Below, piece after piece: positions 1 through 36,653 of a stretch of 43,320 nt of DNA. The position numbers and the translations under genes were made by a program. The notes under the pieces were generated by a model. It was not told the origin of the DNA. It did no database searches and saw only the letters and a list, made by a program, of their open reading frames with translations. How positions within the stretch are numbered: position 1 is the stretch's first letter; each line of letters starts with the position of its first letter. Source of the DNA: a virus (lineage: Duplodnaviria; Heunggongvirae; Uroviricota; Caudoviricetes); IMG/VR virus record IMGVR_UViG_2541047798_000010; one strand, 5' to 3'.

Positions 1-516
1 ATGAAATTTAAAAAATGTCTTCTGCCTGTGGCAATGTTAGCGTCATTCACTCTGGCAGGATGCCAGTCAAATGCTGATGATCATGCCGCCGATGTTTATC
101 AAACCGATCAACTGAATACCAAACAAGAAACTAAAACCGTTAATATTATTTCCATTCTTCCCGCAAAAGTTGCCGTAGACAACTCCCAAAATAAACGAAA
201 CGCACAAGCCTTCGGCGCGCTTATTGGTGCAGTCGCTGGCGGTGTAATCGGCCACAACGTGGGGTCTGGCAGCAATTCCGGAACGACGGCAGGTGCAGTT
301 GGCGGCGGAGCTGTTGGCGCGGCAGCGGGTTCTATGGTGAATGATAAAACCTTAGTGGAAGGTGTTTCTCTAACGTATAAGGAAGGCACCAAAGTGTATA
401 CCTCCACCCAGGTGGGTAAAGAGTGCCAGTTTACGACAGGTTTAGCCGTTGTTATTACCACGACGTATAACGAAACGCGTATTCAGCCAAATACGAAATG
501 TCCTGAAAAGAGCTAA
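1..516 (+). CDS. Lipoprotein with Gly/Ala-rich glycine-zipper core (SlyB/Pcp-like); probably host-side flank
   Basis: 171-aa ORF from ATG at 1; signal peptide with lipobox LAGC; central GALIGAVAGGVIGH...GAVGGGAVGAAAG segment. Confidence 0.65.
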   Translation: MKFKKCLLPVAMLASFTLAGCQSNADDHAADVYQTDQLNTKQETKTVNIISILPAKVAVDNSQNKRNAQAFGALIGAVAGGVIGHNVGSGSNSGTTAGAVGGGAVGAAAGSMVNDKTLVEGVSLTYKEGTKVYTSTQVGKECQFTTGLAVVITTTYNETRIQPNTKCPEKS

Positions 517-531
517 TGATCAGGAGGAGTC

Positions 532-1071
532 ATGAAGAAAGTTTTTCTTTGCGCCATCTTAGCCTCCTTAAGCTATCCGGCTATCGCCTCATCATTGCAG
601 GATCAACTCTCGGCTGTCGCAGAAGCGGAACAGCAAGGTAAAAATGAAGAGCAAAGGCAGCATGACGAATGGGTCGCGGAGCGCAACAGGGAAATCCAGC
701 AAGAGAAGCAACGTCGCGCAAACGCCCAGGCCGCGGCTAATAAAAGAGCGGCAACGGCAGCGGCGAATAAGAAAGCTCGTCAGGATAAACTGGACGCCGA
801 AGCCACTGCGGACAAAAAACGCGATCAAAGTTATGAAGATGAGCTACGCAGCTTAGAGATTCAGAAACAAAAACTGGCGCTGGCGAAAGAAGAAGCCCGC
901 GTCAAGCGCGAAAACGAATTTATCGATCAGGAACTGAAGCACAAAGCTGCGCAAACCGATGTGGTGCAATCTGAAGCTGACGCAAACAGAAATATGACTG
1001 AAGGCGGTCGCGATCTGATGAAAAGCGTGGGTAAAGCAGAAGAGAACAAATCGGACAGCTGGTTTAACTAA
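532..1071 (+). CDS. Secreted coiled-coil protein, Lys/Ala/Glu-rich; function unknown
   Basis: 179-aa ORF; strong RBS AGGAGGAG upstream of ATG 532; N-terminal signal peptide; followed by terminator at 1116. Confidence 0.6.
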   Translation: MKKVFLCAILASLSYPAIASSLQDQLSAVAEAEQQGKNEEQRQHDEWVAERNREIQQEKQRRANAQAAANKRAATAAANKKARQDKLDAEATADKKRDQSYEDELRSLEIQKQKLALAKEEARVKRENEFIDQELKHKAAQTDVVQSEADANRNMTEGGRDLMKSVGKAEENKSDSWFN

Positions 1072-1115
1072 GCGATGTCAGTAACTTCAAGCCTATGATT
1101 CGTGAGTATAAAAAA

Positions 1116-1142
1116 CCCTCTGTAGTAACAGAGGGTTTTGTT
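1116..1142. terminator. Bidirectional rho-independent terminator between host-like genes and the prophage lysis cassette
   Basis: Stem CCCTCTGT/ACAGAGGG with 4-nt loop, flanked by an A-tract upstream and TTTTGTT downstream (U-tract on both strands). Confidence 0.7.
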
Positions 1143-1266
1143 CATTCATAGTGCAGGGTTCAAATCATTCCCACTCAATTATTTACGATAACCATAACCA
1201 ATTGAGTGATAACATTTTTCCAAATCTCAATTTTTCCCGTACCGTTTTATATACCGTCACCGGAAA

Positions 1267-1764
1267 TCAGTGCCACGATTTTTGCTTCTTCAGTGAATCG
1301 TATTGCTGCTCGCAGAATTCCCCTGCGATACGATACTTTTCAGCCTCAGCTGCTGTTGCGTTGTAAACTCGGTTGCTTTCTTCAAGCATGTCGGCGAGCA
1401 CACCGATGACCTTGCTGGCTGGCGTGCCAGGGGGGAAAGATCCGGTATAGTGTTCGGCGAGCCGCCTGGTTTTGTCAAGCTCGGCGCGCATGCTGTCAGC
1501 AGCGGAATTAGCATACTCAGCATCAGCACGCGCCGCATCGATACGGGATTGTGCTTCACGTTCAATTTGTGTTTTCTCCTGCTCACGCTGTGACCTTAAC
1601 TTATCATCAGCCTGTTTCTGATCTTCCTTCGCCTGAGCATACCCGGCATCGTACTGGCGACTGCCGTGTATATTCCAGGCAACCACTCCTGATATGACCA
1701 GAACAGCAAGCACTGCCACGATAAGCAACTGTTTCCAGTATGCTTTTACGAATGCCCAGATCAT
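1267..1764 (-). CDS. Rz-like i-spanin (lysis protein, N-terminal TM anchor plus coiled coil)
   Basis: 165-aa ORF; N-terminal hydrophobic segment; ATGA overlap with endolysin stop at 1761-1764; last gene of lysis cassette. Confidence 0.6.
1290..1538 (-). CDS. Rz1-like o-spanin lipoprotein, fully embedded in the Rz gene in another frame
   Basis: ORF in +1 frame inside Rz; predicted start [17 protein letters not shown] has lipobox LLTAC followed by a Pro-rich mature peptide. Confidence 0.45.
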   Translation of the reverse strand: MRRVLMLSMLIPLLTACAPSLTKPGGSPNTIPDLSPLARQPARSSVCSPTCLKKATEFTTQQQLRLKSIVSQGNSASSNTIH

Positions 1765-2390
1765 ACCGCCAGCACCTTACTGGCAGTGATGTACCGCGCT
1801 CGCCGGTCGTCGATGCCGTTCCGGCCACCATTGATAATCAGAGTTACACGTGCAATATCGCCGGTATACTTCATGCATCCTTTGCTGGCGAAGAACCACG
1901 CCGCGCTACGAGCCGCATATTCGTCCTGCGCCAGCAGTTCAGGGCTCTCCAGCAGGTCAACCTTCAGACCGTTTCCGCAATCACGATAGTTATTCAAACC
2001 GGTAATCTGGATAAGTCCGCGCCCTCGGTAATTCCAGCCATCACCAGGGGCATTGTTCCCCATGCGTTTGCTGTATACCAGATTTGCGATCGCGCGCTGG
2101 CGCTCAAGTGGCAATGGTGGTTCACCAGCACGGCGCCCCAGTGCATTAGCCTGCCCCTGAGTGAGACGCCCAGCCCGAACGAAGTTAGCCAGTCCGCTGA
2201 CACTGTAGTTGAAATTCTCCTGCAACCTGGTGAAGCCCCCAGACTCATGCCCGACTTGAGCAATAAACATTGCCTGATCTTCTGCTTTGCTGATACCAAA
2301 CTCTTTCATCGCAGAAGTTATATGCGAGAACCAGCGTGCGGCCAGTGCCTCGCTGATACCAGCAGCTCGCTGGAATTGTTTAATCTCCAT
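1761..2390 (-). CDS. Endolysin, glycoside hydrolase family 19 (chitinase-like)
   Basis: Start chosen at internal ATG 2390 (RBS GAGG 9 nt upstream); GH19-type motif [20 protein letters not shown]; the longer ORF in the track overlaps the upstream holin. Confidence 0.85.
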
Positions 2391-2688
2391 GTTTAGACCT
2401 CGATACTTTAAAAATTTGAACGACGTTACCGCGCGTTTTAATAACCGCAGCCAGCATGACAGCGTTGATAATGACCTCAGATAAATCCACAGCCATTGGC
2501 GTACGTAACCAGATTGCATAGGCGACTCGAACAGGAATACTGGCCGCAGCAACAATCAGGAAATAAGCAAGCCATCCTCCCCACCTTCGATGTTGAGAGC
2601 CGTTACGCCGGAATGTGACAACGCGAATTGCTATGCCAGTGCAAATAACTGCATTGGTGATAAGCAAAAAAAACTCATGCGTTACCAT
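2380..2688 (-). CDS. Small membrane protein, holin or antiholin candidate
   Basis: 102 aa with two hydrophobic helices; RBS GGAG 8 nt upstream of ATG 2688; immediately upstream of endolysin. Confidence 0.5.
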
Positions 2689-3079
2689 CGTCTTTTCTCC
2701 CCGGAATTAACTCGCGTGGATTATCGGAACGGTGATAGAGCCATATACCAATACGCACAGCGACAATTGCTGACACGAATGCGCCTGCAGAGAAAACAAT
2801 CCCTTTTTCAAAAGAGTCCTGCGTGATGGTAGGGATCAGGCTGGCTATGCCGATAAGAATTGATGCTGCTGGTTTGTAAAAGAGAAGGCCGCAAAGAAAG
2901 CTGAGCATCGACAGGAGCACCCGGCGACGGATGGGGTACTCTACTGCAGAGGTAACAAAAATTACCGCCCCAGCCAAAGCCCCTAAAGCAACCTCCGGAG
3001 GGGCACCTGCAATAACCGCAGCAAGAGAACTAAAACTAAGCAACTGATTTAATTGCTCACTTGTTACTTGAGCAGACAT
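2675..3079 (-). CDS. Holin-like membrane protein
   Basis: 134 aa with multiple hydrophobic segments and a charged C-terminus; RBS AGGAG upstream of ATG 3079; first gene of lysis cassette. Confidence 0.5.
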   Translation of the reverse strand: MSAQVTSEQLNQLLSFSSLAAVIAGAPPEVALGALAGAVIFVTSAVEYPIRRRVLLSMLSFLCGLLFYKPAASILIGIASLIPTITQDSFEKGIVFSAGAFVSAIVAVRIGIWLYHRSDNPRELIPGRKDDGNA

Positions 3080-3360
3080 ACTTTCTCCTGTTTACTATCT
3101 ATAAGCCAGTCAATTATTGATGACTAAACCCGCATAGTAAACCATATATGAATCATTATTGTTCCATATCATATATCTCAATAAAAGTACTAATGATTTT
3201 ACAGAACGAGCCAGCAGAGTGGGGGCAGTTGTACAGGAACCATAGACTTAATTTTGTATTTAATAATGCTATGGTGTAATAAACCTGAACATGTATTTAA
3301 AATACGTACTGATTCATGATAGAATTCAAAGATAACTTTTCACAAACTCCGTTTTTGATA

Positions 3361-3386
3361 CCCGCAAAATATTGCGGGCTTTTTTT
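3361..3386. terminator. Hairpin overlapping the tailspike stop codon; U-tract is on the plus strand, orientation and function ambiguous
   Basis: Stem CCCGCAAAATATTGCGGG followed by CTTTTTTT on the plus strand. Confidence 0.35.
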
Positions 3387-6300
3387 AACGTTCTTCCAGA
3401 GACTGAATCCGCTCTTTTATCTTATCCATTTCTCTGCGCTGCCATGCTGCCTCGATATAGAATAAGAGATCAGGCCTGACCCCCCATCTAGATCCTGCTG
3501 GCGTTATTTCAACGCGCTCAATGATGTCTTCCATTACCATCACTGGATTATCATCCTCATCAACAATGATGCTCCCGTCATTATCAGTCAGCGGCATTTC
3601 CCTTTGGCCAGTAATGACGTCATCATATACTGCGGGATAATCGTCATAGCAAAGAAAGGCATAGCGGCATGTTGTGCTTTCTTCTTCCATGAGTCCGTGA
3701 GAAATAAGAACATCACGAAGTTGCTGCGCGATTACACCATGATGTATCCTCGCCCCTTCTTCCCCCTTTATAGCGACAGCGTTCAGCCATTTATAAGCGA
3801 TATACCTGACGTCACCCCAGGCATCCAGCAATGCTTCGTCAGGAGAGACCGGCTCTGTCTTTAATGTTCCGTCACTGGTAACCACAGGATTGGAGCCAAG
3901 ATAAACTGTCGAGAACCTGTTTCCCGGACCACCAAGAGCATTTACATTATCAAGATAAGGTTTAACATCTCCGTTCTCAAAAAGATGTTCGAGTGCGTTA
4001 TATACCGCGCGACGTGGAGTACTGCTTCCGGAACCATGCAACGTTATCATTGCACCATCTGCTGAAGACGTTGTTTCACCGCCGCTAACGATTAATCTCT
4101 GAGCGGTAACATCATCAGACGGTACTTTCTTCGCAATAATGGCGTAATTACCCTCAAGTTTGACTTCCGCGCGAACTTGTCCTGATGTACCTGCATGGAC
4201 AGTCAGTGACTGGACGGCAACATCATCTGTGAAATCAACGGGTACAGGAACCGTCCTCACGCCTGACGTCGACATAAAAGTAGGAAGCGTTCTGTTAGGA
4301 GTGGCTCCGTAGACAAAATCCCTTGAAACAAATTCTTCCTGTTTGATTTTCACCCTGAAACAATATAAATCAGCCGGGTGACCATCGTGAACATAAGGAT
4401 ATTTTCTGTTGTTATCCCCTATGCTCCATGGGTTTAGAAAGTCTTCCCCACCGAAAATGTAGTACAGCCAGTTGTCTTTGATACAAACTGAACCAACACC
4501 AACCGCAGAGTTAACTATTCCGCCCTGATAAATCTGATCAGTAACATTAACCCACTCTACATTATCCAGACTCCACTCATTGACGTTAACTCTGGTCATA
4601 AATGTTCTTGGATAATTTCCTGCATAACGGTTATCAGGTTCTCCTCCTTCCCACTCACCAAATGCGCGCTCACTGCCAAAAATAATCAGCTCATCGCCAA
4701 CTTTGGCAAAAGGAAGGTTTGAGTGATGAACATTATTTGGGAAGCGAAGAGAATTCCATGATGTACCTAAATCAGAGCTTCTGTGCAATGAACTACCGGG
4801 TTGAGTACTTAATGTCCCCCTGGTCGTCAGATACAGAATGCCATCATAATATTTTACACATGGCTCAGATGCATTCGCCTCATATTCTGCAGGTATGCGT
4901 CTGCGAACAAAGCTACCAGGAGAACCGAAAGCATCAGAGAAATAGAGTATCCCAAGCTCGCGTGGACCAATATCACCATTATGGTAGCCAACAGCAAAAC
5001 TGTTATCGCTAATCGTCGCAAAACTGTGAATCTCAGTAACAGGAGTGCTTCCGTCAACAAAAGAAGGAATAGTTCCAAGACTGGTTTTTCTCCATGGTGA
5101 CGAGTGAAATGATGTGCCAAAACTCCAGTATCTACCCTCGTTATTCTGATCCACATCCTGAGTATTTTGCGTCGTAACTGTAAAAGTATTTTTATCAATA
5201 ACAGTAGTCACCGTCATATTCCCGGTAACACCTGTAACACCAGAGTTTGAGAAGTTGACAAAATCACCAGCAAATAATCCGTGATCAGTAATGCGAATAT
5301 AAGCGACTTGCTGATTTGCTGCTTTCGTTATACCACCATAAACGCGAAGGCTGCGACTCATTGGGCGATCCCACAACTCTGCAACCTGCAGTTTATTTCC
5401 TCTCACGGTCCGCGTCTCAATTACAGCAAAAAGGCGATTTCTGACAACCCCCATACTCATGCAGTGATAGTTAACTGTGGGATAGTTTTCATGTAAATCT
5501 GTAAGCCATTCCGGCGTTGTCCAGGTCTTCCCGTCATCTCCTGAGCGAACCCATGCAACATGGAGGTTATTTACACCATGGCGGTCTCCAGCCATAAAAG
5601 GCGCATAGATGACATTGTCATATACAAACGTTTTATCCTGCGTCCAGGCGTTGTACCACGGTGTATCTGTAATTTTAAATAACTCTCCCTGGATAAAATC
5701 TTCAGAAGCATAAAAAAGAGGCTGGCCCGGTATTCTCTCAAATAAAAAACGAGCATTTTTAAATCGACTGACATCCGGAAGAGTTGATACTTTAAAAGTA
5801 AGCCCTAATCCGTCAATTTTATAACCTGGAGATGAGGCTTCAAGGCACGCGCTTATTGCAGTGGAGTCGTCATTTATACCATCACCAACAGCTCCAAAAT
5901 CTTTGGGGCTAATAGCATCACGCATTTTATCCTGGAACGTTCGGTACACAGCCCCAGAACCATACTGAATAAACCAACCAAAACCACCAACAACCCCGGC
6001 GATTGCAGCATCAACATAATTACGCATTGAGCGATTATTTACAGCGTCCTGCTCAAATGATGGATCTGCAAGGTTAGAAATTTTGTTTTGCTTTGCATCG
6101 TAATATTTTGCAAGCAGAGAGGGCTTCATCAATGCACGTCTGAACCACCCAAAACATTGCTGGATCAGCATCGTCAGGTAGTCAAAGGCATCTTCATGCA
6201 CTTCGGGGAAAAATTTTCCCTGATTGCGAAGGTCTGTCTCCTGCACTACATCAAGCACACGATCTATCGTAATTCGCCATCCAGTAGCAAGCGGAGACGG

Positions 6301-6504
6301 AAGAACCACAGAACCGCCACTATAAGTGCCCGCCCCAGTTACCGTATAACCGGTATCCAGGACCAATTCTGTTACGTTCCCGTTCAGGTCAGACACCTGA
6401 ACAACCAGGTCTGATTTTCTGAAAATTCGAAAAGTATACGGAAACGATGTCGTAACGCCGTTACCGGTGTATTCGTTGTGGTCAACTTCGGTTGAGACCG
6501 TCAT
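3385..6504 (-). CDS. Tailspike/depolymerase: T7 gp17-like N-terminal adaptor, central domain with pectate-lyase-like motif plus sialidase-type RIP and two Asp-box motifs, C-terminal intramolecular-chaperone (peptidase S74-like) domain
   Basis: 1039 aa; RBS GGAG upstream of ATG 6504; motifs DFGAVGDGINDD (aa 202-213), ERIP (aa 255-258), SGDDGKTW (aa 321-328), SSDLGTSW (aa 576-583); C-terminal about 160 aa from TSDGTLKTEP resembles auto-cleaving chaperone domains. Confidence 0.9.
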   Translation of the reverse strand: MTVSTEVDHNEYTGNGVTTSFPYTFRIFRKSDLVVQVSDLNGNVTELVLDTGYTVTGAGTYSGGSVVLPSPLATGWRITIDRVLDVVQETDLRNQGKFFPEVHEDAFDYLTMLIQQCFGWFRRALMKPSLLAKYYDAKQNKISNLADPSFEQDAVNNRSMRNYVDAAIAGVVGGFGWFIQYGSGAVYRTFQDKMRDAISPKDFGAVGDGINDDSTAISACLEASSPGYKIDGLGLTFKVSTLPDVSRFKNARFLFERIPGQPLFYASEDFIQGELFKITDTPWYNAWTQDKTFVYDNVIYAPFMAGDRHGVNNLHVAWVRSGDDGKTWTTPEWLTDLHENYPTVNYHCMSMGVVRNRLFAVIETRTVRGNKLQVAELWDRPMSRSLRVYGGITKAANQQVAYIRITDHGLFAGDFVNFSNSGVTGVTGNMTVTTVIDKNTFTVTTQNTQDVDQNNEGRYWSFGTSFHSSPWRKTSLGTIPSFVDGSTPVTEIHSFATISDNSFAVGYHNGDIGPRELGILYFSDAFGSPGSFVRRRIPAEYEANASEPCVKYYDGILYLTTRGTLSTQPGSSLHRSSDLGTSWNSLRFPNNVHHSNLPFAKVGDELIIFGSERAFGEWEGGEPDNRYAGNYPRTFMTRVNVNEWSLDNVEWVNVTDQIYQGGIVNSAVGVGSVCIKDNWLYYIFGGEDFLNPWSIGDNNRKYPYVHDGHPADLYCFRVKIKQEEFVSRDFVYGATPNRTLPTFMSTSGVRTVPVPVDFTDDVAVQSLTVHAGTSGQVRAEVKLEGNYAIIAKKVPSDDVTAQRLIVSGGETTSSADGAMITLHGSGSSTPRRAVYNALEHLFENGDVKPYLDNVNALGGPGNRFSTVYLGSNPVVTSDGTLKTEPVSPDEALLDAWGDVRYIAYKWLNAVAIKGEEGARIHHGVIAQQLRDVLISHGLMEEESTTCRYAFLCYDDYPAVYDDVITGQREMPLTDNDGSIIVDEDDNPVMVMEDIIERVEITPAGSRWGVRPDLLFYIEAAWQRREMDKIKERIQSLEER

Positions 6505-6608
6505 GTTAAATCTCCAGATAGTCGCAGCACCCGTTGCGCCGCATATCTGGTTATTCTATTACCTGAAAAACCACATATGGATAAAAAGACTATAAATACC
6601 AATAGATA

Positions 6609-6623
6609 TTACCTTTCGGGTAA
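6609..6623. promoter_or_regulatory. Operator-type palindrome TTACC-N5-GGTAA (copy upstream of LexA-controlled gene, in divergent region with tailspike)
   Basis: ATTACCTTTCGGGTAAT; perfect match to the motif found at OR and OL. Confidence 0.6.
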
Positions 6624-6660
6624 TTTGCAAAACGTGCTGGATAGCAAACAAATTATTTGT

Positions 6661-6680
6661 TACTGTATAAACATACAGTT
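6661..6680. promoter_or_regulatory. LexA (SOS) box
   Basis: TACTGTATAAACATACAGTT: CTGT-N8-ACAG core intact, 17 of 20 positions match TACTGTATATATATACAGTA; 20 bp upstream of ATG 6700. Confidence 0.75.
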
Positions 6681-6699
6681 ATTGCATGGAGAAGATAAG

Positions 6700-6957
6700 A
6701 TGCAGCAGTATCACTATCCACTGGAAGACGGATTTACCGAAAGGATTCACACGCCGGGAGGCGTCAGGTCACTGGTGGAGGGATCGCACTTGATGAAATT
6801 ACTCCGGGATCTCGATAAGGATGGATTTAATGTCGATGGCCCACTTGCCGAACTGACTGCACTGATTAACTACGTCACCAGCTCACAGATGTCTATGCAG
6901 GATCTACAAACACATCTCGACTATTGTGCCGAACAATTACGAAAACAAACCAGATAA
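6700..6957 (+). CDS. Small standalone antirepressor-effector-domain protein (homolog of the C-terminal domain of the two Ant paralogs); SOS-controlled candidate antirepressor
   Basis: 85 aa from ATG 6700 (RBS GGAG 8 nt upstream); aligns with Ant C-terminus (IH-P-GV...LM-LL...DG-V-G-AELT...DLQTH-Y); LexA box immediately upstream. Confidence 0.65.
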   Translation: MQQYHYPLEDGFTERIHTPGGVRSLVEGSHLMKLLRDLDKDGFNVDGPLAELTALINYVTSSQMSMQDLQTHLDYCAEQLRKQTR

Positions 6958-6988
6958 GATTTGAAATTACCAATAGGAGTGCTTATAT

Positions 6989-7003
6989 TTACCTTTGCGG
7001 TAA
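6989..7003. promoter_or_regulatory. Operator-type palindrome TTACC-N5-GGTAA sitting in the loop of a hairpin (AGGAGTGC/GCACTCCT) at the outer edge of the left ant arm
   Basis: TTACCTTTGCGGTAA; mirrored by the copy at 10028. Confidence 0.6.
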
Positions 7004-7094
7004 ATTTACATCGCACTCCTCTTGTGCCATAGTAATCGGGCACTGGCAAAATCCAGTGCCGGGATTGGCGTCCCGGGTTACTAAGTGGCGCATA

Positions 7095-7117
7095 CCACGC
7101 CAGACGTGGTTTTTTTA
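7095..7117 (+). terminator. Rho-independent terminator inside the ant1 leader
   Basis: Stem CCACG/CGTGG followed by TTTTTTTAT; preceded by two further stem-loops (GGCACTGG/CCAGTGCC and CCGGGA/TCCCGG). Confidence 0.55.
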
Positions 7118-7272
7118 TGCGTTAAGCACAGCTATATCCGAATTATGGTGGGCTGGGCAGGGGTCCGAAAGGACGCCGGTACCACTTAGGCCGGTACGCC
7201 AACCTTGTCCAGTTCACCACCAGTAATTGGCGTTGCGGTGGTGATTAAAATCACTAAGTGGAGATAACCACC

Positions 7273-7983
7273 ATGGCTAATGCTCAAACTGCCATCTTCA
7301 AATTTGAATCTGTTAACCCTATCCGTTCCATCATTATCGATGGCCAACCATGGTTTGTAGCCCAAGACGTTTGTAGTGCGCTGCGTATCCAAAACGTCAC
7401 CCAAGCACTTGAAAAACTGGATGATGATGAAAGGTCTATGTTCAACATAGGGCATGAACATCGTGCAATTTTTGACAGCCGAGTAAAAGAGATCAACATT
7501 ATCTCCGAGTCAGGCCTCTACACACTGATCCTCCGCTGCCGCGACGCAGTGACACCAGGCACTATCCCCTACCGCTTTCGTAAATGGGTTACAGGTGAGG
7601 TTCTTCCTCAGATCCGCCGCACCGGAAGTTACATTAAAAACTCGCTCCCGCAGGAAGAACGCATAAAGATGGTTGCCGACCAGGTAGCCAACGCCACAGC
7701 ATCAGCAGTGATGCAGGCAATGAAGATAGAGAACAAAACCTACAGCGCCCCGCTGAAGCCCGGCTACCGCAGCCTGATTCATTCGCCGTCTGGTGTTCTC
7801 GGCCTGACGGAGAACTCACTGCTGATGAATCTGCTGAACCAGTTACAGGAAGACGGGCACGATGTATCGGGCGCGGCGGCGGAGCTGACCACCATGTTTT
7901 GCTACATCGTTGGTGTGAGCAAATGCCTGCGTGATATCCAGACGCACGCGGAGTACATCAACGACAAGGCTGGGTTCTTCTGA
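7273..7983 (+). CDS. Antirepressor paralog 1 (Bro-N-like N-terminal domain plus shared C-terminal effector domain)
   Basis: 236 aa from ATG 7273 (RBS GGAG); N-terminal IFKFESVNPIRSIIIDGQPWFVAQDVCSAL is Bro-N/KilA-N-like; C-terminal half nearly identical to paralog 2. Confidence 0.8.
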   Translation: MANAQTAIFKFESVNPIRSIIIDGQPWFVAQDVCSALRIQNVTQALEKLDDDERSMFNIGHEHRAIFDSRVKEINIISESGLYTLILRCRDAVTPGTIPYRFRKWVTGEVLPQIRRTGSYIKNSLPQEERIKMVADQVANATASAVMQAMKIENKTYSAPLKPGYRSLIHSPSGVLGLTENSLLMNLLNQLQEDGHDVSGAAAELTTMFCYIVGVSKCLRDIQTHAEYINDKAGFF

Positions 7984-8010
7984 CGGGCGGCGGCACAGGG
8001 ATGTGCCTTT
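7585..8010. repeat. Left arm of a near-identical inverted repeat (about 425 bp) covering the 3-prime half of ant1 and about 25 bp beyond its stop
   Basis: Reverse complement of 9045-9470 matches with only scattered substitutions; mirrored antisense ORFs 7634-7819 and 9232-9417 have near-identical translations. Confidence 0.8.
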
Positions 8011-8055
8011 AAATAATTCTGTACGATTGCAGACAGGGTGGTGAATAGAGTACTA

Positions 8056-8070
8056 TTACCTTACGGGTGA
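8056..8070. promoter_or_regulatory. Imperfect operator-type site upstream of the cargo gene
   Basis: TTACCTTACGGGTGA (one mismatch in the right half-site). Confidence 0.4.
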
Positions 8071-8107
8071 TCCATAGCGATTAGGCACCGATACAGGAGG
8101 AGCCCAC

Positions 8108-8140
8108 ATGAGAAAATTTGACGAGTACGAAGGCGTTTAA
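8108..8140 (+). other. 10-codon upstream ORF (MRKFDEYEGV) with strong RBS, followed by a terminator-like hairpin at 8161-8184; candidate attenuator leader for the cargo gene
   Basis: AGGAGG 7 nt upstream of ATG 8108; hairpin GGGGCC-ATTA-GGCCCC then GTTTTCAT; cargo start at 8200. Confidence 0.3.
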
Positions 8141-8199
8141 CATTCGGATAGTTTAATGACGGGGCCATTAGGCCCCGTTTTCATGTCTGGAGACAGTTT

Positions 8200-8739
8200 G
8201 TGTTAAGTGAAGAAATGCAATTTGCCATGGCTGTGGCTCAAATCGTAAGTGCAGTCGCGGTTTCGCTTGGCTTGTTCATAGCTATCGCTACTATTATTTA
8301 TAATGTAAATACAGCGAGAAAAGTACACACTTCAGTATTCCTTGGTGAAAGCAGGTTTGATGTAGATTATAAGAAAGGCCTATCTACTATGCGCCGCATT
8401 CACGAGTCGAACAAATCATTCCGCTCTTATATGTATCCAAGCAATGGGCAGGCTGATCTTACGGATGAAGAAAAGATAGAGAAGAGAGAAATAATTTACT
8501 GTCTAGGTTTCTACGAACGCATGGCTGTGAGCGTGAAGCGGAAAACTTATGATGAGACCATGATTAAGGAAGTATTTTACAGCTCCGTTGTAAATAACTA
8601 TCAGATTGCGCTACCTCTTATACAAGCTATTAGAGAAAAAGAAAACATAAACACATATTTTAAAGAATATGAATGGTTAGCCACACGATGGAAGGATTGT
8701 CCATTGAAGGACAAATCCCCGTGGTACAAGTTTTGGTAA
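8200..8739 (+). CDS. Membrane-anchored protein of unknown function; AT-rich cargo between the inverted ant genes (candidate superinfection-exclusion or abortive-infection protein)
   Basis: 179-aa ORF with GTG start at 8200 (GGAG 7 nt upstream) or ATG 8215; single N-terminal TM helix; markedly AT-rich; 3 of the first 8 Arg codons are AGA/AGG; followed by a strong terminator. Confidence 0.6.
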   Translation: MLSEEMQFAMAVAQIVSAVAVSLGLFIAIATIIYNVNTARKVHTSVFLGESRFDVDYKKGLSTMRRIHESNKSFRSYMYPSNGQADLTDEEKIEKREIIYCLGFYERMAVSVKRKTYDETMIKEVFYSSVVNNYQIALPLIQAIREKENINTYFKEYEWLATRWKDCPLKDKSPWYKFW

Positions 8740-8762
8740 GCCCGCAGCGCGGGCTTTTTTGT
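8740..8762 (+). terminator. Rho-independent terminator after the cargo gene
   Basis: GCCCGC-AGC-GCGGGC followed by TTTTTTGT directly after the TAA stop. Confidence 0.7.
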
Positions 8763-8832
8763 GGACGAAACAAAAGTCAGTGCTACACTCATTGACGCCA
8801 CATTGAGGTGGCTTATAGATGGAAATTTCACA

Positions 8833-8994
8833 ATGAAAAAAGCATTTGCTGCACTGTTCGTTTTGTTGTCTCTGGTAGCTTCAACTCAGGCCTTTGCCGG
8901 TCGTTGTCAGCACGACAGCGACACTGCTGCTGACGGCTCCCGCTGCGGTGGGCGTTCTGCGGATTCCCGCCCTGGCGGCGGTGGCATTCGTTAA
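8833..8994 (+). CDS. Possible small secreted Gly-rich peptide (53 aa); weak call
   Basis: Internal ATG of track ORF 8761-8994; predicted signal peptide MKKAFAALFVLLSLVASTQAFA; no convincing RBS. Confidence 0.3.
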   Translation: MKKAFAALFVLLSLVASTQAFAGRCQHDSDTAADGSRCGGRSADSRPGGGGIR

Positions 8995-9017
8995 AAACAA
9001 GGCCGCGAAAGCGGCCT
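8991..9017 (-). terminator. Rho-independent terminator for ant2
   Basis: Minus-strand stem GGCCGC-TTTC-GCGGCC followed by TTGTTTTTAA, about 50 bp downstream of the ant2 stop. Confidence 0.55.
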
Positions 9018-9018
9018 G

Positions 9019-9030
9019 TGACATGTCACG
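9019..9030. repeat. 12-bp perfect palindrome GTGACATGTCAC (copy 1 of 3)
   Basis: Exact 12-mer also at 28175-28186 and 30629-30640. Confidence 0.6.
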
Positions 9031-9044
9031 ATAGTTTCGTTTTG

Positions 9045-9470
9045 CACATCCCTGTGCCGCCGTTCTGTCAGAAGAACCCTGCTTTGTCGTTGATATACTC
9101 CGCGTGGGTCTGGATATCACGCAGGCATTTGCTCACACCGACGATGTAGCAGAACATGGTGGTCAGCTCCGCCGCCGCGCCCGATACGTCGTGCCCGTCG
9201 TCCTGTAACTGGTTCAGCAGATTCATCAGCAGTGAGTTCTCCGTCAGGCCGAGAACACCAGACGGAGAATGAATCAGGCTGCGGTAGCCGGGCTTCAGCG
9301 GGGCACTGTAGATTTTGTTCTCTATCTTCATCGCCTGCATTACTGCTGACGCCGTGGCGTTGGCTACCTGGTCGGCAACCATCTTTATGCGTTCTTCCTG
9401 CGGGAGCGAGTTTTTAATGTAACTTCCGGTGCGGCGGATCTGAGGAAGTACTTCGCCTGTAACCCATTCA
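9045..9470. repeat. Right arm of the near-identical inverted repeat (3-prime half of ant2)
   Basis: Reverse complement matches 7585-8010. Confidence 0.8.
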
Positions 9471-9760
9471 AGAAATCTGAATGCTCTCGTTCCCTCAGTC
9501 ATTGCCTCTTTGCAACGCAGAATAAGGATGTAGAGACCTGATTCTGAAACGATGGATAGTTCTTGTATTCCACCAGGGGTCTGTATTGAATACAGCCCCT
9601 TTTTGTTCCAGCCTTTTTTATCAAGTTTTCTCGCTTGTGTAACATCAATATTCAAAGCATTGCACACATCTTTGGTGACAAACCAAGGTTCTCCGTCAAT
9701 CATGAACATACGGATCTGGCAGGATGACTCAAAGGAAAAGATGGAAGGTTTGGTATTCAT
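9068..9760 (-). CDS. Antirepressor paralog 2 (Bro-N-like N-terminal domain plus shared C-terminal effector domain), inverted relative to paralog 1
   Basis: 230 aa from ATG 9760 (RBS AGGTGA); N-terminal domain diverged from paralog 1, C-terminal about 130 aa near-identical. Confidence 0.8.
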   Translation of the reverse strand: MNTKPSIFSFESSCQIRMFMIDGEPWFVTKDVCNALNIDVTQARKLDKKGWNKKGLYSIQTPGGIQELSIVSESGLYILILRCKEAMTEGTRAFRFLEWVTGEVLPQIRRTGSYIKNSLPQEERIKMVADQVANATASAVMQAMKIENKIYSAPLKPGYRSLIHSPSGVLGLTENSLLMNLLNQLQDDGHDVSGAAAELTTMFCYIVGVSKCLRDIQTHAEYINDKAGFF

Positions 9761-10027
9761 GGCGATCACCTTTGTAGTTAGGTTAATCACCACCGCTGAG
9801 ACCAATCAGATGGTGGTGAACTGTGCAGAGTTGGTCTTACCGGCTACAAAGGAACCCGGCGCACCTTTCGGTGCCCCCACACAGCCCACCATAGAATAGG
9901 TGCGCTTTACACATAAAAAAACCGCTTATGCGGCATATGTGCCTCTGTAGTAATCCGGGAGACCAATCCCGGCACTGGATTTTGCCAGTGCCTGATTACT
10001 ATGGCACAAGAGGAGTGCGATGTAAAT

Positions 10028-10042
10028 TTACCGCAAAGGTAA
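10028..10042. promoter_or_regulatory. Operator-type palindrome TTACC-N5-GGTAA at the outer edge of the right ant arm
   Basis: TTACCGCAAAGGTAA; mirror of the 6989 copy, with the same downstream stem-loops and terminator in inverted orientation. Confidence 0.6.
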
Positions 10043-10065
10043 TGATAAACGCTAAGAAATATTAA

Positions 10066-10084
10066 AATCAACCATATTTGGTTA
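10066..10084. promoter_or_regulatory. Second palindromic motif ATCAACCAnATTTGGTTA (AACCA-N4-TGGTT), copy 1
   Basis: AATCAACCATATTTGGTTA; near-identical element at 36927-36945; degenerate AACCACATA versions at 6569, 27150 and 34987, each next to an operator-type site. Confidence 0.35.
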
Positions 10085-10189
10085 ATGCGTATAAAAGAGC
10101 CAGCAGCGAGAAATTGTGCCGCGACGTAAAATAACGAGCATCTGCTGGCTTACAACCAGCGATGTTTCAAATTTGTCACTATTATCAAC

Positions 10190-10543
10190 GTGCCATTCCA
10201 CGGCGCAGAGCTTTATGTTGTCAATCATAACGGCGAACCATACACCCCAATGAAACCTATCGTTGAAGGCATGGGTATGGATTGGGCTTCACAGTTTACG
10301 AAAATGAAGCAGCGGTTTAAAACCTGCATTGTGAAAATCACAATGCAGCTTCCTGGGGATGAACAGCGCCGTGAGATTATTTGTTTGGCACTTCGCAAAC
10401 TTGCTGGCTGGTTGCAAACCATCAGCCCTAACAAAGTCCGCCCTGAAATCCGCGAAAGTATTGAAACATCAACCGTATCGATATCGACACGGTTGATTAT
10501 GACGGTAACTTATTTCCGTGTGTCCTATTTCTCCCGCCACTAA
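10190..10543 (+). pseudogene. Possible gene remnant; ORF with GTG start and no RBS
   Basis: 117-aa track ORF; normal GC content, no ribosome-binding site, ends directly against the minus-strand AT-rich gene. Confidence 0.25.
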
Positions 10544-10840
10544 CTAATTATATTTGTCTTTAAAAATTTCATGGAATGATTGAGAGTAAGACTTGCCATA
10601 CTTCAAATAACATTCTTCATCCAACTTTCTTAATGAACTTCGAACCTGTTCGTGGCATACAGCAAAAAAAACAAGTCCGCCGCCTATTAATACCCCTATT
10701 GATATTGGGTTCGCAACATCCCATAAAAAATCGGCTAACAGAGCAAATACCCCACCGCCGCCAATAAATGCCCCTATAGCTCGGTTCGTTTTAGCTTGCT
10801 CATAGCGTCTCTCTAACTCACTAAACTCTTTAATATCCAT
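10544..10840 (-). CDS. Small two-TM membrane protein, AT-rich moron
   Basis: 98 aa from ATG 10840; two Gly-rich hydrophobic helices (GAFIGGGGVFALLADFLW and ISIGVLIGGGLVFFAV) with charged termini; low GC. Confidence 0.55.
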   Translation of the reverse strand: MDIKEFSELERRYEQAKTNRAIGAFIGGGGVFALLADFLWDVANPISIGVLIGGGLVFFAVCHEQVRSSLRKLDEECYLKYGKSYSQSFHEIFKDKYN

Positions 10841-10917
10841 ATAAGCACCTCTATAAAATTACTTCATCACCGGATCCACCTGGTTTATTAGTGGCGCAAT
10901 CCAGAACAGATGTTTTA

Positions 10918-11766
10918 TTATTGTGAAGTTTTCATTGCACGATTTTCAGCTCTGAATTCAAGAACCGTTTCAATATTTCTTTCCTTCAGCATATCCATAA
11001 CATTTTTATTCATTTGACTATCACTGGTTAATAACTGATAAACGTTTCTTTTCTCTTTATCAGAATTTTCTTTAACAGCTGATTTGCATGACAAATGCTT
11101 ATTGAAATTTTCTACATCGCTAGTACATGAATTTACGGCTGCGGATGAAATATCAGACGCTGAAGAAACACCGTCATCTAAACGTTTTATAGCATTTTCT
11201 ATACATGAGTTAAGGGAATAAACGACAACTGAGCGATACCCTTCAGACGCACACCATTCTAAATTTCTTGAAGGATCGAGTGGTTTTACTTCGCTGGATT
11301 GAATTAACTTGTCAAACACTGACTTATATTCAATCTGTTTTTTATCTATAGCCCATACCTCAGTAGCTGATTTATAATGCCCAGTATGCTTATTAACATC
11401 AAACCCATGTTTTATAAGCAAATCTGCCCATGAAAGATTTATTGATTCATTGTTATGAGGCCATTTCCCTGTCAGAACCGCCCCCATAGACCCCATATAT
11501 CCGCCATATGATGGTATAGCACCATGGCTCAATAACTTCTCAGCAACCACAGGGCAATTAATTACATAGGAGGCGTAAAGCCCATTCCATAAAGCCCCTC
11601 TATAGTAATCGCCGCGATTAGGTTCTTTTAAGTCGATAGCCTTTGATAATTGTTCACACGTTTTGCATGCATCAAAGTTATCCTTATTGCATTGCAATGA
11701 ACTGGCGGCTGTAGGATTTACAGCGACTATTGAAAGCACAATGCCAAACAAATTTATTTTTTTCAT
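10918..11766 (-). CDS. Secreted Cys-rich protein of unknown function, AT-rich moron (possible degenerate ankyrin-like repeats)
   Basis: 282 aa from ATG 11766; N-terminal signal peptide MKKINLFGIVLSIVAVNPTAASS; many Cys; segments such as ADLLIKHGFDVNKH resemble ankyrin repeat ends; low GC. Confidence 0.6.
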   Translation of the reverse strand: MKKINLFGIVLSIVAVNPTAASSLQCNKDNFDACKTCEQLSKAIDLKEPNRGDYYRGALWNGLYASYVINCPVVAEKLLSHGAIPSYGGYMGSMGAVLTGKWPHNNESINLSWADLLIKHGFDVNKHTGHYKSATEVWAIDKKQIEYKSVFDKLIQSSEVKPLDPSRNLEWCASEGYRSVVVYSLNSCIENAIKRLDDGVSSASDISSAAVNSCTSDVENFNKHLSCKSAVKENSDKEKRNVYQLLTSDSQMNKNVMDMLKERNIETVLEFRAENRAMKTSQ

Positions 11767-11767
11767 C

Positions 11768-27538: not shown

Positions 27539-27615
27539 GTGGCATTAGCTCAGTTGGACAGAGCAACCGCCTTCTAAGCGGTTGGTCGCAGGTTCGAATC
27601 CTGCATGCCACGCCA
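27539..27615 (+). tRNA. tRNA-Arg (anticodon UCU, reads AGA), phage-encoded
   Basis: 77-nt cloverleaf: acceptor GTGGCAT/ATGCCAC, D-stem GCTC/GAGC, anticodon stem ACCGC/GCGGT with loop CTTCTAA, T-arm GCAGG-TTCGAAT-CCTGC, discriminator G and encoded CCA; differs from host argU. Confidence 0.9.
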
Positions 27616-35863: not shown

Positions 35864-36653
35864 CCCACACCTCATCTATCCAGTCAGTGTTATGCCAGTC
35901 AAGGCTCTTTCTGACTTCACCTGATTTCTGTCTACAGAACTGGATGCGCCTTGCCAGCTTCTGCTCCCACTGTGCCTGATGGTATGCCTTACCCTCAGCC
36001 ATCCAGTAAATTCTGAACTCTGCAAGTTCCTGTGCCGTTGGCAGACTGTCCAGGTAGATTCCCTGCAATGAGCTTTTCCGAAGAAAGTCATCTGATGGCT
36101 GCCATTGTTCATGCATGACAAATTTGCCTAATTGCCCTGGCCCACCAGGAGGAACAAAGTTATTCATCACGGCGTTGTTTGCGCCGGGGTCATGAGGCAC
36201 AGAATCCCCGGTTTTTGTCCTGCTCTCCCTCTCTTGGTTAAATGACTGGTTATATGACTGGTTCTGGATCCCGTTTTTGGGATCATTCAACATCCCGTTT
36301 TTGGGATCATTCAACATCCCGTTTTCGGGAACATTACCGTTTTCGGGTTCATTACACCCTTCTAGGTTGCCTTTAATGTTCCCGTTTTTGGTTATATTAA
36401 GAGAGAAAACCCGCACTCTTTTTGTCGCTCCCTTTCTCTCTCCGGTATCTGAAATAAGCCCCATTTTCATGAGCGATATAAGCCCGGCCTGCACGGTTTT
36501 TTTATTCAGGCAAGTGTCTTTAACGAGGCGTTCTATGCTGGGGTAGCAGAGGTTATATTCATCGGCTCTGTCAGCCATCGAGAGCAGTATGAGCTTTAAT
36601 GATGAGCTACCTGGATCTGTCTCCCAGGCCCAATCTGTTGCATGTCTGCTCAT
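35838..36653 (-). CDS. Replication initiator O-like protein containing the origin iterons
   Basis: 271 aa; RBS GGAG; N-terminal HTH-like domain; repetitive linker NDPKNGMLNDPKNG encoded by the iteron DNA; directly upstream of the P-like gene. Confidence 0.65.
   Translation of the reverse strand: MSRHATDWAWETDPGSSSLKLILLSMADRADEYNLCYPSIERLVKDTCLNKKTVQAGLISLMKMGLISDTGERKGATKRVRVFSLNITKNGNIKGNLEGCNEPENGNVPENGMLNDPKNGMLNDPKNGIQNQSYNQSFNQERESRTKTGDSVPHDPGANNAVMNNFVPPGGPGQLGKFVMHEQWQPSDDFLRKSSLQGIYLDSLPTAQELAEFRIYWMAEGKAYHQAQWEQKLARRIQFCRQKSGEVRKSLDWHNTDWIDEVWDEINSRTS
36267..36395. repeat. Origin-type iteron array inside the O-like gene
   Basis: Two exact 24-bp direct repeats (CATCCCGTTTTTGGGATCATTCAA, first copy starts GATCC) plus 2-3 degenerate copies with core CCCGTTTT(T/C)GG. 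Confidence 0.6.

What the first reader, a model, noticed from the sequence alone, without database searches (positions are those of the whole stretch)
3385..6504. Tailspike combines sialidase-type motifs with a C-terminal auto-chaperone domain
After a T7 gp17-like N-terminal adaptor, the protein has a pectate-lyase-like motif (DFGAVGDGINDD), a RIP motif (ERIP) and two Asp-boxes (SGDDGKTW, SSDLGTSW), the signature set of sialidase-fold beta-propellers. It ends in a domain resembling the self-cleaving intramolecular chaperone of endosialidases and other tail fibres (about 3388-3876; predicted cleavage near TS/DGTLK). This points to a capsule or O-antigen depolymerase, possibly acting on a sialic-acid-type polysaccharide, and predicts host serotype.
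Basis: partly seen in the sequence, partly recalled or inferred. Interest (0 to 1): 0.5.

Follow-up and report, generated by a model that had tools for sequence, protein, structure and literature searches.

The report
Known K1 capsule-degrading phage tailspike
This gene encodes a well-known type of phage tailspike, an endosialidase that digests the polysialic-acid K1 capsule of E. coli and cuts off its own folding-helper tail, and the identical protein has already been published, so the finding is correct but ordinary.

Summary
Window 3385-6504 (- strand) is one intact 1039-aa ORF. It matches all four Pfam endosialidase domains (beta-propeller E 6.5e-233) and Peptidase_S74. Residues 205-876 are about 67% identical to the crystallised phage K1F endosialidase. 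Residues 234-1030 differ at only 8 positions from the experimentally characterised CUS-3 endosialidase. The whole protein is 100% identical to the tailspike of the published temperate phage vB_EcoP_ZX5, which grows on an O87:H52:K1 strain; that paper describes the same three-domain layout. The reported catalytic residues (H309, R515, E547, R562, R613), both Asp-boxes and the autocleavage residues (S877, K882, R863) are conserved. The N-terminal roughly 200 residues are the anchor of phiV10/epsilon15-like podophages (Uetakevirus), with a T7 gp17-like fold. The window is such a prophage, with host yfgH-yfgI at its left end, as in APEC O1. Three corrections apply. The "pectate-lyase motif" is the conserved start of the endosialidase head and lies at the module joint. 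"RIP" is not a family motif; only E-R is invariant. Activity and cleavage are inferred, not tested.

The parts
3385..6504 (-). Complete tailspike gene (1039 aa plus stop): endosialidase (endo-N-acetylneuraminidase) precursor, 115.7 kDa
   Evidence: ORF. Pfam domains. 100% protein identity to vB_EcoP_ZX5 QTH80017.1. Masses.
5908..6504 (-). N-terminal virion anchor, aa 1-199: beta-sandwich (aa 8-85) followed by a helical neck; Uetakevirus (phiV10/epsilon15-type) module with a T7 gp17-like fold
   Evidence: 97.8% nucleotide identity to the phiv142-3 tail-fibre gene from -299 to nt 596. PHROG tail families at E down to 1e-139. PDB 8ck1 at E 1.5e-32. AlphaFold model and Foldseek hits to T7 gp17 N-terminus 7ey9 and 7boz. 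PMC10408124 uses the first 205 aa of the phiV10 tailspike as its query for the Uetakevirus anchor.
5866..5901 (-). DFGAVGDGINDD motif (aa 202-213) at the joint between the anchor and the enzymatic head
   Evidence: It lies in the roughly 100-nt stretch (gene nt 597-698) that is neither phiv142-3-like nor CUS-3-like at high identity. GAxGDG...D is invariant in six endosialidases. The same motif starts the beta-helix head of the phiv142-3 tail fibre.
5692..5892 (-). Endosialidase N-terminal extension, aa 205-271 (contains ERIP at aa 256-259)
   Evidence: PF12218 E 5.9e-32. E256 and R257 are invariant; I258 and P259 are not.
4342..5691 (-). Six-bladed beta-propeller catalytic domain, aa 272-721, with predicted catalytic residues H309, R515, E547, R562 and R613
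   Evidence: PF12217 E 6.5e-233. 70.4% identity to K1F and 99.8% to CUS-3 over this span. Residue mapping. Residue roles from PMC12632334.
5110..5358 (-). Beta-barrel (polysialic-acid-binding) domain inserted in the propeller, aa 383-465
   Evidence: PF12195 E 3.2e-46. 100% identical to CUS-3.
5521..5544 (-). Asp-box 1, SGDDGKTW (aa 321-328)
   Evidence: Aligned with the K1F box SGDDGQTW and invariant in six endosialidases.
4756..4779 (-). Asp-box 2, SSDLGTSW (aa 576-583)
   Evidence: S, D, G and W are invariant in six endosialidases.
3877..4341 (-). Stalk domain (Pfam End_tail_spike), aa 722-876; contains R863, the counterpart of endoNF R897
   Evidence: PF12219 E 8.4e-78. Aligned to the end of chains 1v0e and 3gvl. 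R863 mapping.
3388..3876 (-). C-terminal intramolecular chaperone / autoprotease domain, aa 877-1039 (18.7 kDa), with the S877-K882 dyad; predicted cleavage T876|S877
   Evidence: PF13884 E 1.7e-10. 3gw6 E 1.3e-93 over aa 757-1038. S877 and K882 are invariant. The dyad is described in PMC8326128.
3361..3378 (.). GC-rich palindromic hairpin 7 nt after the stop codon. The T-run is on the + strand only, so it is at best a weak terminator for the tailspike gene.

Best explanation
The gene encodes the single receptor-binding tailspike of a phiV10/epsilon15-like (Uetakevirus) temperate podophage. The window shows the prophage with the host genes yfgH-yfgI on its left flank and its integrase gene at the right edge. 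The protein is a GH58 endosialidase. Inferred from homologues: it is made as a 115.7-kDa precursor, and its C-terminal chaperone domain (aa 877-1039) drives trimerisation and folding of the stalk. Once folding brings S877, K882 and R863 together, that domain cuts itself off between T876 and S877, leaving a stable 97-kDa mature spike. The N-terminal roughly 200 residues (T7 gp17-like fold) fix the trimer to the tail. [quoted passage not shown] This lets the virion tunnel through the capsule. Shown here: the domain architecture, conservation of the catalytic and cleavage residues, identity to published proteins, and the mosaic origin (Uetakevirus anchor plus CUS-3-type head). Inferred from homologues: trimerisation, autocleavage, enzymatic activity and K1 specificity.
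For: Pfam finds End_N_terminal, End_beta_propel (E 6.5e-233), End_beta_barrel, End_tail_spike and Peptidase_S74, all above the curated cut-offs. PDB hits are endoNF 1v0e/3gvl at E=0 over aa 205-876, phi92 endosialidase 4hiz at E 6.7e-271, and the endoNF stalk plus chaperone 3gw6 at E 1.3e-93. Identity to K1F is 70% in the propeller; identity to CUS-3 is 99.8% in the propeller and 98.7% in the stalk. CUS-3 siaK1 is annotated with endo-alpha-sialidase activity from direct assay, citing PMID 16689790. The protein is 100% identical to the vB_EcoP_ZX5 tailspike. That phage forms plaques on E. coli YO1, serotype O87:H52:K1, and its paper describes ORF7 as T7-like N-terminus plus endosialidase plus intramolecular chaperone (PMC9782041). 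H309, R515, E547, R562 and R613 match K1F H350, R549, E581, R596 and R647, which were intolerant to substitution in a deep mutational scan (PMC12632334). S877, K882 and R863 match S911, K916 and R897 (PMC8326128). All of these are invariant in six endosialidases from podo-, sipho- and myophages. All 12 nucleotide differences from the ZX5 allele are synonymous. The full-length gene occurs in 72 of 5426 complete E. coli genomes, always on chromosomes, including strains named O1:K1:H7 and O7:K1. The inverting mechanism and the GH58 assignment come from PMC6254351 and PMC9620260. The prophage carries no second tailspike or fibre gene among its tail genes.
Against: Nothing was tested biochemically here: activity, trimerisation and cleavage rest on homology. 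K1F K410, reported as essential in vitro, is G369 here and G310 in CUS-3; however, the mutational scan found K410 substitutable. K1F Q853, which I recall as a stalk binding residue (from memory, not verified), is M819 here, as in the active CUS-3 enzyme. K1 specificity versus other polysialic acids (K92, O-acetylated K1) cannot be told from sequence.
Confidence: 0.93

Rival explanations
1. It is an endosialidase-fold tailspike whose real target is a different sialic-acid polymer, such as K92 (alternating alpha-2,8/2,9 linkages) or heavily O-acetylated K1, rather than plain K1.
For: Sequence alone cannot fix linkage or acetylation preference. Unlike CUS-3, this prophage has no neuO O-acetyltransferase next to the spike gene, so its relation to capsule acetylation may differ.
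Against: The head is 99.8% identical to the CUS-3 enzyme from K1 strain RS218. The identical protein serves a phage grown on a K1 strain. Named carriers are K1 strains.
Confidence: 0.04
2. It is a decayed prophage gene, or a binding-only spike that is catalytically inactive or not processed.
For: The copy sits in a prophage, and prophage genes can decay. Catalytically inactive endosialidases that still bind polysialic acid are known as engineered reagents (PMC5380687).
Against: The ORF is intact, and all reported catalytic and cleavage residues are retained. There are no amino-acid differences from the spike of a plaque-forming phage, and the 12 nucleotide differences are all synonymous.
Confidence: 0.02
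3. It is a pectate-lyase-type beta-helix depolymerase, or a GH33 exosialidase, rather than an endosialidase.
For: There are weak Pfam matches: PF12708 at E 0.036 over aa 201-221 and BNR_2 at E 0.0037. The DFGAxGDGxxDD motif also begins the beta-helix tail fibre of phiv142-3.
Against: Both matches are far below the curated cut-offs (14.3 against 27 bits; 17.1 against 31.4 bits). The endosialidase models score 110-773 bits, and solved endosialidases align end to end.
Confidence: 0.01

Closest known systems
vB_EcoP_ZX5 ORF7 tail protein (QTH80017.1; MW722083; Uetakevirus; PMC9782041)
   Same: 100% identical in protein sequence and 99.6% in DNA, with all 12 differences synonymous. The neighbouring lysis genes are the same: membrane protein, holin, endolysin and a DUF2514 protein. 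The flanking host locus is consistent: ZX5 integrates at the 3' end of guaA, and the window and APEC O1 have yfgH-yfgI on the other side.
   Different: The gene itself does not differ. The window's prophage has a duplicated, inverted antirepressor region upstream of the spike gene that ZX5 lacks.
CUS-3 endosialidase tailspike SiaK1 (ABQ88383.1; P22-like Lederbergvirus prophage of E. coli K1 RS218)
   Same: 95% identity over aa 193-1039, and 99.3% nucleotide identity over gene nt 699-3091. Propeller, barrel, stalk and chaperone are the same, with 8 amino-acid differences in aa 234-1030. Its activity was shown experimentally (PMC5380687).
   Different: The N-terminal anchor is a P22 gp9-type head-binding domain rather than the Uetakevirus/T7 gp17-like anchor. 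CUS-3 carries the phase-variable neuO gene just downstream, and the window does not. The last 9 residues differ.
Phage K1F endosialidase endoNF (gp17; PDB 1V0E, 3GVL, 3GW6)
   Same: The domain order is the same. Identity is 57% in the N-terminal extension, 70% in the propeller, 56% in the stalk and 54% in the chaperone. Catalytic residues, Asp-boxes and the S/K/R cleavage residues are identical.
   Different: K1F is a lytic T7-like phage whose anchor is only about 22% identical. The window protein has a 7-residue insertion (FVDGSTP, aa 482-488) and a longer chaperone insert. It has G369 in place of K410 and M819 in place of Q853.
phiV10 / epsilon15 / phiv142-3 tailspikes (Uetakevirus)
   Same: The N-terminal anchor is 97.8% identical in DNA to phiv142-3 through nt 596. 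The genome backbone and the gene's position next to the lysis cassette are the same.
   Different: Their heads are O-antigen-specific beta-helix enzymes; here the head is a beta-propeller endosialidase. phiV10 has an O-acetyltransferase conversion gene beside the spike, and the window has none.

Membership tests
GH58 bacteriophage endosialidase | Six-bladed beta-propeller catalytic domain (Pfam PF12217) | tested here: met
   772.6 bits, E 6.5e-233, covering the whole model 1-367. 70% identical to the propeller of the crystal structure 1v0e.
GH58 bacteriophage endosialidase | Beta-barrel domain inserted in the propeller, plus the N-terminal extension and the stalk (tail-spike) domain | tested here: met
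   PF12195 at 155.7 bits (aa 383-465), PF12218 at 109.6 bits (aa 205-271) and PF12219 at 260.4 bits (aa 722-876).
GH58 bacteriophage endosialidase | Two Asp-boxes (blades 1 and 4 in K1F; PMC2716378) | tested here: met
   SGDDGKTW at aa 321 and SSDLGTSW at aa 576, aligned with the K1F boxes at 362 and 610. None of 20,000 shuffles gave two boxes.
GH58 bacteriophage endosialidase | Active-site residues H350, R549, E581, R596 and R647 (K1F numbering; PMC12632334) | tested here: met
   They map to H309, R515, E547, R562 and R613, invariant in six endosialidases.
GH58 bacteriophage endosialidase | Endo-cleavage of alpha-2,8 polysialic acid with inversion | not testable with these tools
   Support is indirect: the CUS-3 head (99.8% identical) is annotated with activity from direct assay, and the identical protein serves a phage of a K1 strain.
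Peptidase S74 / C-terminal intramolecular chaperone domain | Pfam PF13884 match above the cut-off, and homology to the solved endoNF chaperone (3GW6) | tested here: met
   41.4 bits against a cut-off of 22. 3gw6_A at E 1.3e-93 over aa 757-1038.
Peptidase S74 / C-terminal intramolecular chaperone domain | Ser-Lys catalytic dyad (S911/K916, five residues apart) plus the stalk arginine R897 | tested here: met
   S877, K882 and R863 are invariant in six endosialidases. Their roles are described in PMC8326128.
Peptidase S74 / C-terminal intramolecular chaperone domain | Autocatalytic release of the domain after trimer folding | not testable with these tools
   Predicted products are 97.1 and 18.7 kDa.
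Phage T7 gp17 N-terminal tail-attachment domain (PF03906) | Sequence-profile match above Pfam's gathering score | tested here: not met
   15.9 bits against a cut-off of 25.2, E 0.01, and the best stretch covers only aa 135-161.
Phage T7 gp17 N-terminal tail-attachment domain (PF03906) | Same fold as the gp17 N-terminus in the T7 tail complex | tested here: met
   Foldseek hits 7ey9_a (rmsd 2.0 A over 84 columns), 7boz_a and 8dsp at prob 1.0, E 4.5e-4 to 7.7e-4. The closest hit is 8ck1_B at 47% identity, E 2.2e-11. The model is confident only for aa 8-85.
Uetakevirus tailspike anchor | Conserved first ~200-205 aa shared within the genus (PMC10408124 uses the first 205 aa of the phiV10 tailspike) | tested here: met
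   97.8% nucleotide identity to phiv142-3 up to nt 596. 94% protein identity to HEMP4 over aa 1-203.
GH33 exosialidase | BNR/sialidase profile above the cut-off, and a conserved (F/Y)RIP motif supplying the first arginine of the triad | tested here: not met
   BNR_2 scores 17.1 bits against a cut-off of 31.4. Only E-R of ERIP is conserved among endosialidases, and the following I-P varies. Whether R257 is the counterpart of the FRIP arginine could not be decided without coordinates.
Pectate-lyase-like beta-helix depolymerase (PF12708) | Profile match over the beta-helix domain | tested here: not met
   14.3 bits against a cut-off of 27, covering only aa 201-221.

The most novel reading that the evidence does not exclude
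The conserved GAxGDGxxDD element that opens both beta-helix depolymerase heads (as in phiv142-3) and endosialidase heads may act as a shared recombination joint. Such a joint would let phiV10-like prophages swap an O-antigen beta-helix head for a capsule-specific beta-propeller head. The roughly 100-nt stretch around it (gene nt 597-698) resembles neither parent closely, which would then record a third donor or an older exchange. Separately, the invariant E256-R257 could be a vestige of the exosialidase FRIP arginine.
Probability: 0.3. Interest if true: 0.25.

Novelty: already known. Interest (0 to 1): 0.1.

Why it matters
It matters little for discovery. Endosialidase tailspikes are among the best-studied phage depolymerases, with crystal structures, a known mechanism and a deep mutational scan, and this exact protein and its domain layout are already published for phage vB_EcoP_ZX5. 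The practical value is annotation. The gene marks the prophage as K1-capsule-specific and points to a K1 host background. It is also a clean example of head swapping: the same CUS-3-type endosialidase head sits on a P22-type anchor in CUS-3 and on a Uetakevirus, T7 gp17-like anchor here. That is useful for tailspike engineering and for capsule typing from genomes.

Tried and rejected
- **Pectate-lyase or GH28-type beta-helix head.** Rejected: PF12708 is sub-threshold and covers only 21 residues.
- **GH33 exosialidase.** Rejected: BNR_2 is sub-threshold.
- **RIP as a signature motif.** Rejected: it arises by chance in 13% of shuffles and is not conserved in the family.
- **A neuO-type conversion gene beside the spike, as in CUS-3.** No AAGACTC repeats and no tandem repeats near the gene. 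The 305-nt gap downstream holds only a hairpin.
- **A second receptor-binding protein in the prophage.** None found. The large ORFs upstream are tail-tube and internal virion proteins.
- **Primary endoNF papers** (PMC2267309, PMC2666599, PMC2719380). They are not held in the library, so residue roles are cited from secondary sources.
- **Structure prediction of the central domain.** Judged unnecessary given about 67-70% identity to solved structures.
- **Co-occurrence with the K1 neu/kps locus.** I could not compute this across the 72 carrier genomes, because the genome search lists at most 60 rows and offers no protein mode.
Full report
**1. Observation**

Window 3385..6504 (- strand) is a single intact ORF of 1039 aa. 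It has a GGAG ribosome-binding site 8 nt upstream of the ATG.
- DFGAVGDGINDD, aa 202-213
- ERIP, aa 256-259
- SGDDGKTW, aa 321-328
- SSDLGTSW, aa 576-583
- TSDGTLK, aa 876-882

In 20,000 composition-preserving shuffles, two Asp-boxes never arose and the GAxGDGxxDD motif never arose. The tripeptide RIP arose in 13% of shuffles, so it carries no weight alone.

**2. What the protein is**

Pfam places five domains, all above their curated cut-offs:

| Domain | Residues | Score |
|---|---|---|
| End_N_terminal | 205-271 | 109.6 bits |
| End_beta_propel | 272-721 | 772.6 bits, E 6.5e-233 |
| End_beta_barrel (inserted in the propeller) | 383-465 | 155.7 bits |
| End_tail_spike | 722-876 | 260.4 bits |
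| Peptidase_S74 | 877-937 | 41.4 bits |

The matches to pectate-lyase (PF12708, 14.3 bits) and BNR_2 (17.1 bits) are well below their cut-offs.

Against solved structures, aa 205-876 align end to end with phage K1F endosialidase (1v0e, 3gvl; E = 0) and with phi92 endosialidase (4hiz; E 6.7e-271). Residues 757-1038 align with the K1F stalk plus chaperone (3gw6; E 1.3e-93). Identity to K1F is 70% in the propeller, 56% in the stalk and 54% in the chaperone.

**3. It is already published**

The protein is 100% identical to the tail protein of Escherichia phage vB_EcoP_ZX5 (MW722083). All 12 nucleotide differences are synonymous. ZX5 is a temperate podophage of the genus Uetakevirus, isolated on E. 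coli YO1, serotype O87:H52:K1, and it integrates at the 3' end of guaA (PMC9782041). That paper states that ORF7 has a T7-like N-terminal domain, a central endosialidase and a C-terminal intramolecular chaperone of endosialidase.

Residues 193-1039 are 95% identical to the CUS-3 endosialidase tailspike SiaK1. Gene nt 699-3091 are 99.3% identical in DNA, and there are only 8 amino-acid differences in aa 234-1030. The CUS-3 record annotates endo-alpha-sialidase activity from direct assay.

The full-length gene occurs in 72 of 5426 complete E. coli genomes, always on the chromosome. Carriers include APEC O1, O7:K1 strain CE10 and several strains named O1:K1:H7.

**4. Functional residues**

I mapped K1F numbering onto the window protein:

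| K1F residue | Window residue | Role |
|---|---|---|
| H350 | H309 | active site |
| R549 | R515 | active site |
| E581 | E547 | active site |
| R596 | R562 | active site |
| R647 | R613 | active site |
| S911 | S877 | cleavage dyad |
| K916 | K882 | cleavage dyad |
| R897 | R863 | stalk arginine needed for cleavage |

The first five are the reported catalytic and sialic-acid-binding residues and were highly intolerant to substitution in a deep mutational scan of the K1F spike (PMC12632334). S911 and K916 form the serine-lysine dyad, and R897 is the stalk arginine required for autocleavage (PMC8326128).

All of these are invariant in an alignment of six endosialidases, as are both Asp-boxes. 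The six come from a Uetakevirus prophage, K1F, CUS-3, the myophage ESCO5, a Kagunavirus siphophage and K1E.

Chain 1v0e ends at the Thr aligned with T876. Predicted products are 97.1 kDa (aa 1-876) and 18.7 kDa (aa 877-1039).

Two K1F residues differ. K410 is G369 here. Q853, which I recall from memory (unverified) as a stalk binding residue, is M819 here. Both differences are shared with the active CUS-3 enzyme, and K410 tolerated substitution in the mutational scan.

**5. The N-terminal anchor and the joint**

Residues 1-203 hit many PHROG tail-spike and tail-fibre families at E down to 1e-139. They also hit PDB 8ck1, a podophage tail fibre (E 1.5e-32).

The Pfam T7-tail model scores only 15.9 bits against a cut-off of 25.2. 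However, an AlphaFold model built from 24 homologues (pLDDT about 90 for aa 8-85, low for the helical neck) matches the T7 gp17 N-terminus in tail complexes. The hits are 7ey9_a (rmsd 2.0 A over 84 columns) and 7boz_a, at E 7.7e-4 and prob 1.0. So "T7 gp17-like" is right at the fold level. The close relatives are Uetakevirus anchors.

At the DNA level, the gene and its upstream 299 nt are 97.8% identical to the phiv142-3 tail-fibre gene as far as nt 596. CUS-3-like sequence starts at nt 699. The roughly 100 nt in between, which encode the DFGAVGDGINDD motif, resemble neither closely. The same motif opens the beta-helix head of the phiv142-3 fibre (DFGAKGDGITDD) and the heads of all six endosialidases (GAxGDG...D invariant). 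It is therefore a conserved module boundary, not evidence of a pectate lyase.

A published analysis uses the first 205 aa of the phiV10 tailspike to represent the Uetakevirus anchor. It finds that anchors follow phage genus while heads follow host serotype (PMC10408124). The exchange of endosialidase heads between T7-type and P22-type anchors was described earlier (PMC5380687).

Of ERIP, only E-R is invariant. Other endosialidases have ERIV, ERVA or ERLA. The motif lies in the N-terminal extension, not in the Pfam propeller model. Whether R257 corresponds to the exosialidase FRIP arginine could not be decided without coordinates.

**6. Genomic context**

The window is a phiV10/epsilon15-like prophage.
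- Positions 1-1071 are the host genes yfgH and yfgI, present in 5422 of 5426 genomes.
- The lysis cassette (DUF2514 protein, GH19 endolysin, two holin-family proteins) lies at 1267-3079, directly downstream of the spike gene.
- The integrase lies at 42070-43320.
- APEC O1 has the same arrangement next to yfgI.
- The tail genes are T7-like tubular and internal virion proteins, and there is no second receptor-binding protein.
- Unlike CUS-3, there is no neuO gene or AAGACTC repeat next to the spike gene.

**7. Mechanism**

Shown here: the architecture, the conserved residues, identity to characterised proteins and the mosaic origin.

Inferred from the K1F literature: the C-terminal domain chaperones trimer and stalk folding, then cleaves itself off through the Ser-Lys dyad. 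The mature trimer is fixed to the tail by the anchor. It binds polysialic acid at the propeller, barrel and stalk sites and cleaves alpha-2,8 linkages internally with inversion, which opens a path through the K1 capsule.

**8. Verdict**

It is a member of a very well-known family, and the identical protein is already described in the literature. Novelty: already known. Interest is low.

Noticed in passing
window 6978-10053 (arms 7481-7984 / 9067-9570 and 6978-7083 / 9948-10053): There is a large inverted duplication just upstream of the tailspike gene. Two Bro-N antirepressor paralogues (7258..7983 + and 9068..9805 -) share 504-nt arms that are 89% complementary, and there are outer 106-nt arms at 92%. 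The 1082-nt spacer carries a DUF4760 ORF (8200..8739) and a small ORF with a signal-peptide-like start (8761..8994). ZX5 and phiv142-3 have a single antirepressor here. This could be an insertion with duplication or an invertible segment.
   Followed up: partly
window 10000-12000: This is a low-GC block (0.40, against about 0.50 for the prophage). It contains ORF 10918..11766 (-), 282 aa with a signal-peptide-like N-terminus, which has no Pfam match but belongs to PHROG 6118 (function unknown). Next to it are a truncated P22_AR_N antirepressor fragment (10190..10543) and a 98-aa ORF with a hydrophobic, glycine-rich middle segment (10544..10840). It looks like a moron or cargo region.
   Followed up: partly
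window 1-1071 and 42070-43320: The window starts with the host core genes yfgH and yfgI and ends exactly at the start codon of the prophage integrase gene. The prophage therefore has yfgI on one side, as in APEC O1, and ZX5 integrates at the 3' end of guaA. The attachment site on the integrase side lies outside the window.
   Followed up: yes
window 6577-6957 (+): A small ORF is transcribed divergently from the tailspike gene. Its C-terminal half resembles the C-terminus of the antirepressors (PHROG 450, and a weaker match to anti-repressor PHROG 1760). It may be a remnant or a small regulator.
   Followed up: no
window 27539-27615 (+): A tRNA-Arg (anticodon TCT) gene sits inside the prophage, on the strand opposite to the large structural-gene ORFs on either side of it.
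   Followed up: no
window 36235-36355: There is a cluster of short tandem repeats (periods 12, 18 and 24; 2-3 copies each) in the early/regulatory region. They could be iterons or operator-like repeats of the replication or immunity region.
   Followed up: no
related sequences: Endosialidase-type heads at about 59-61% identity are annotated in phages listed with non-E. coli hosts: Acinetobacter phage vB_Aba_01KA and 'Salmonella phage IME207', whose host is given as Klebsiella. A 277-aa Kluyvera cryocrescens protein (P0009) joins this same anchor (80% identity) to an endosialidase N-terminal extension. Either the host labels are doubtful or sialic-acid capsules are targeted outside E. coli.
   Followed up: no
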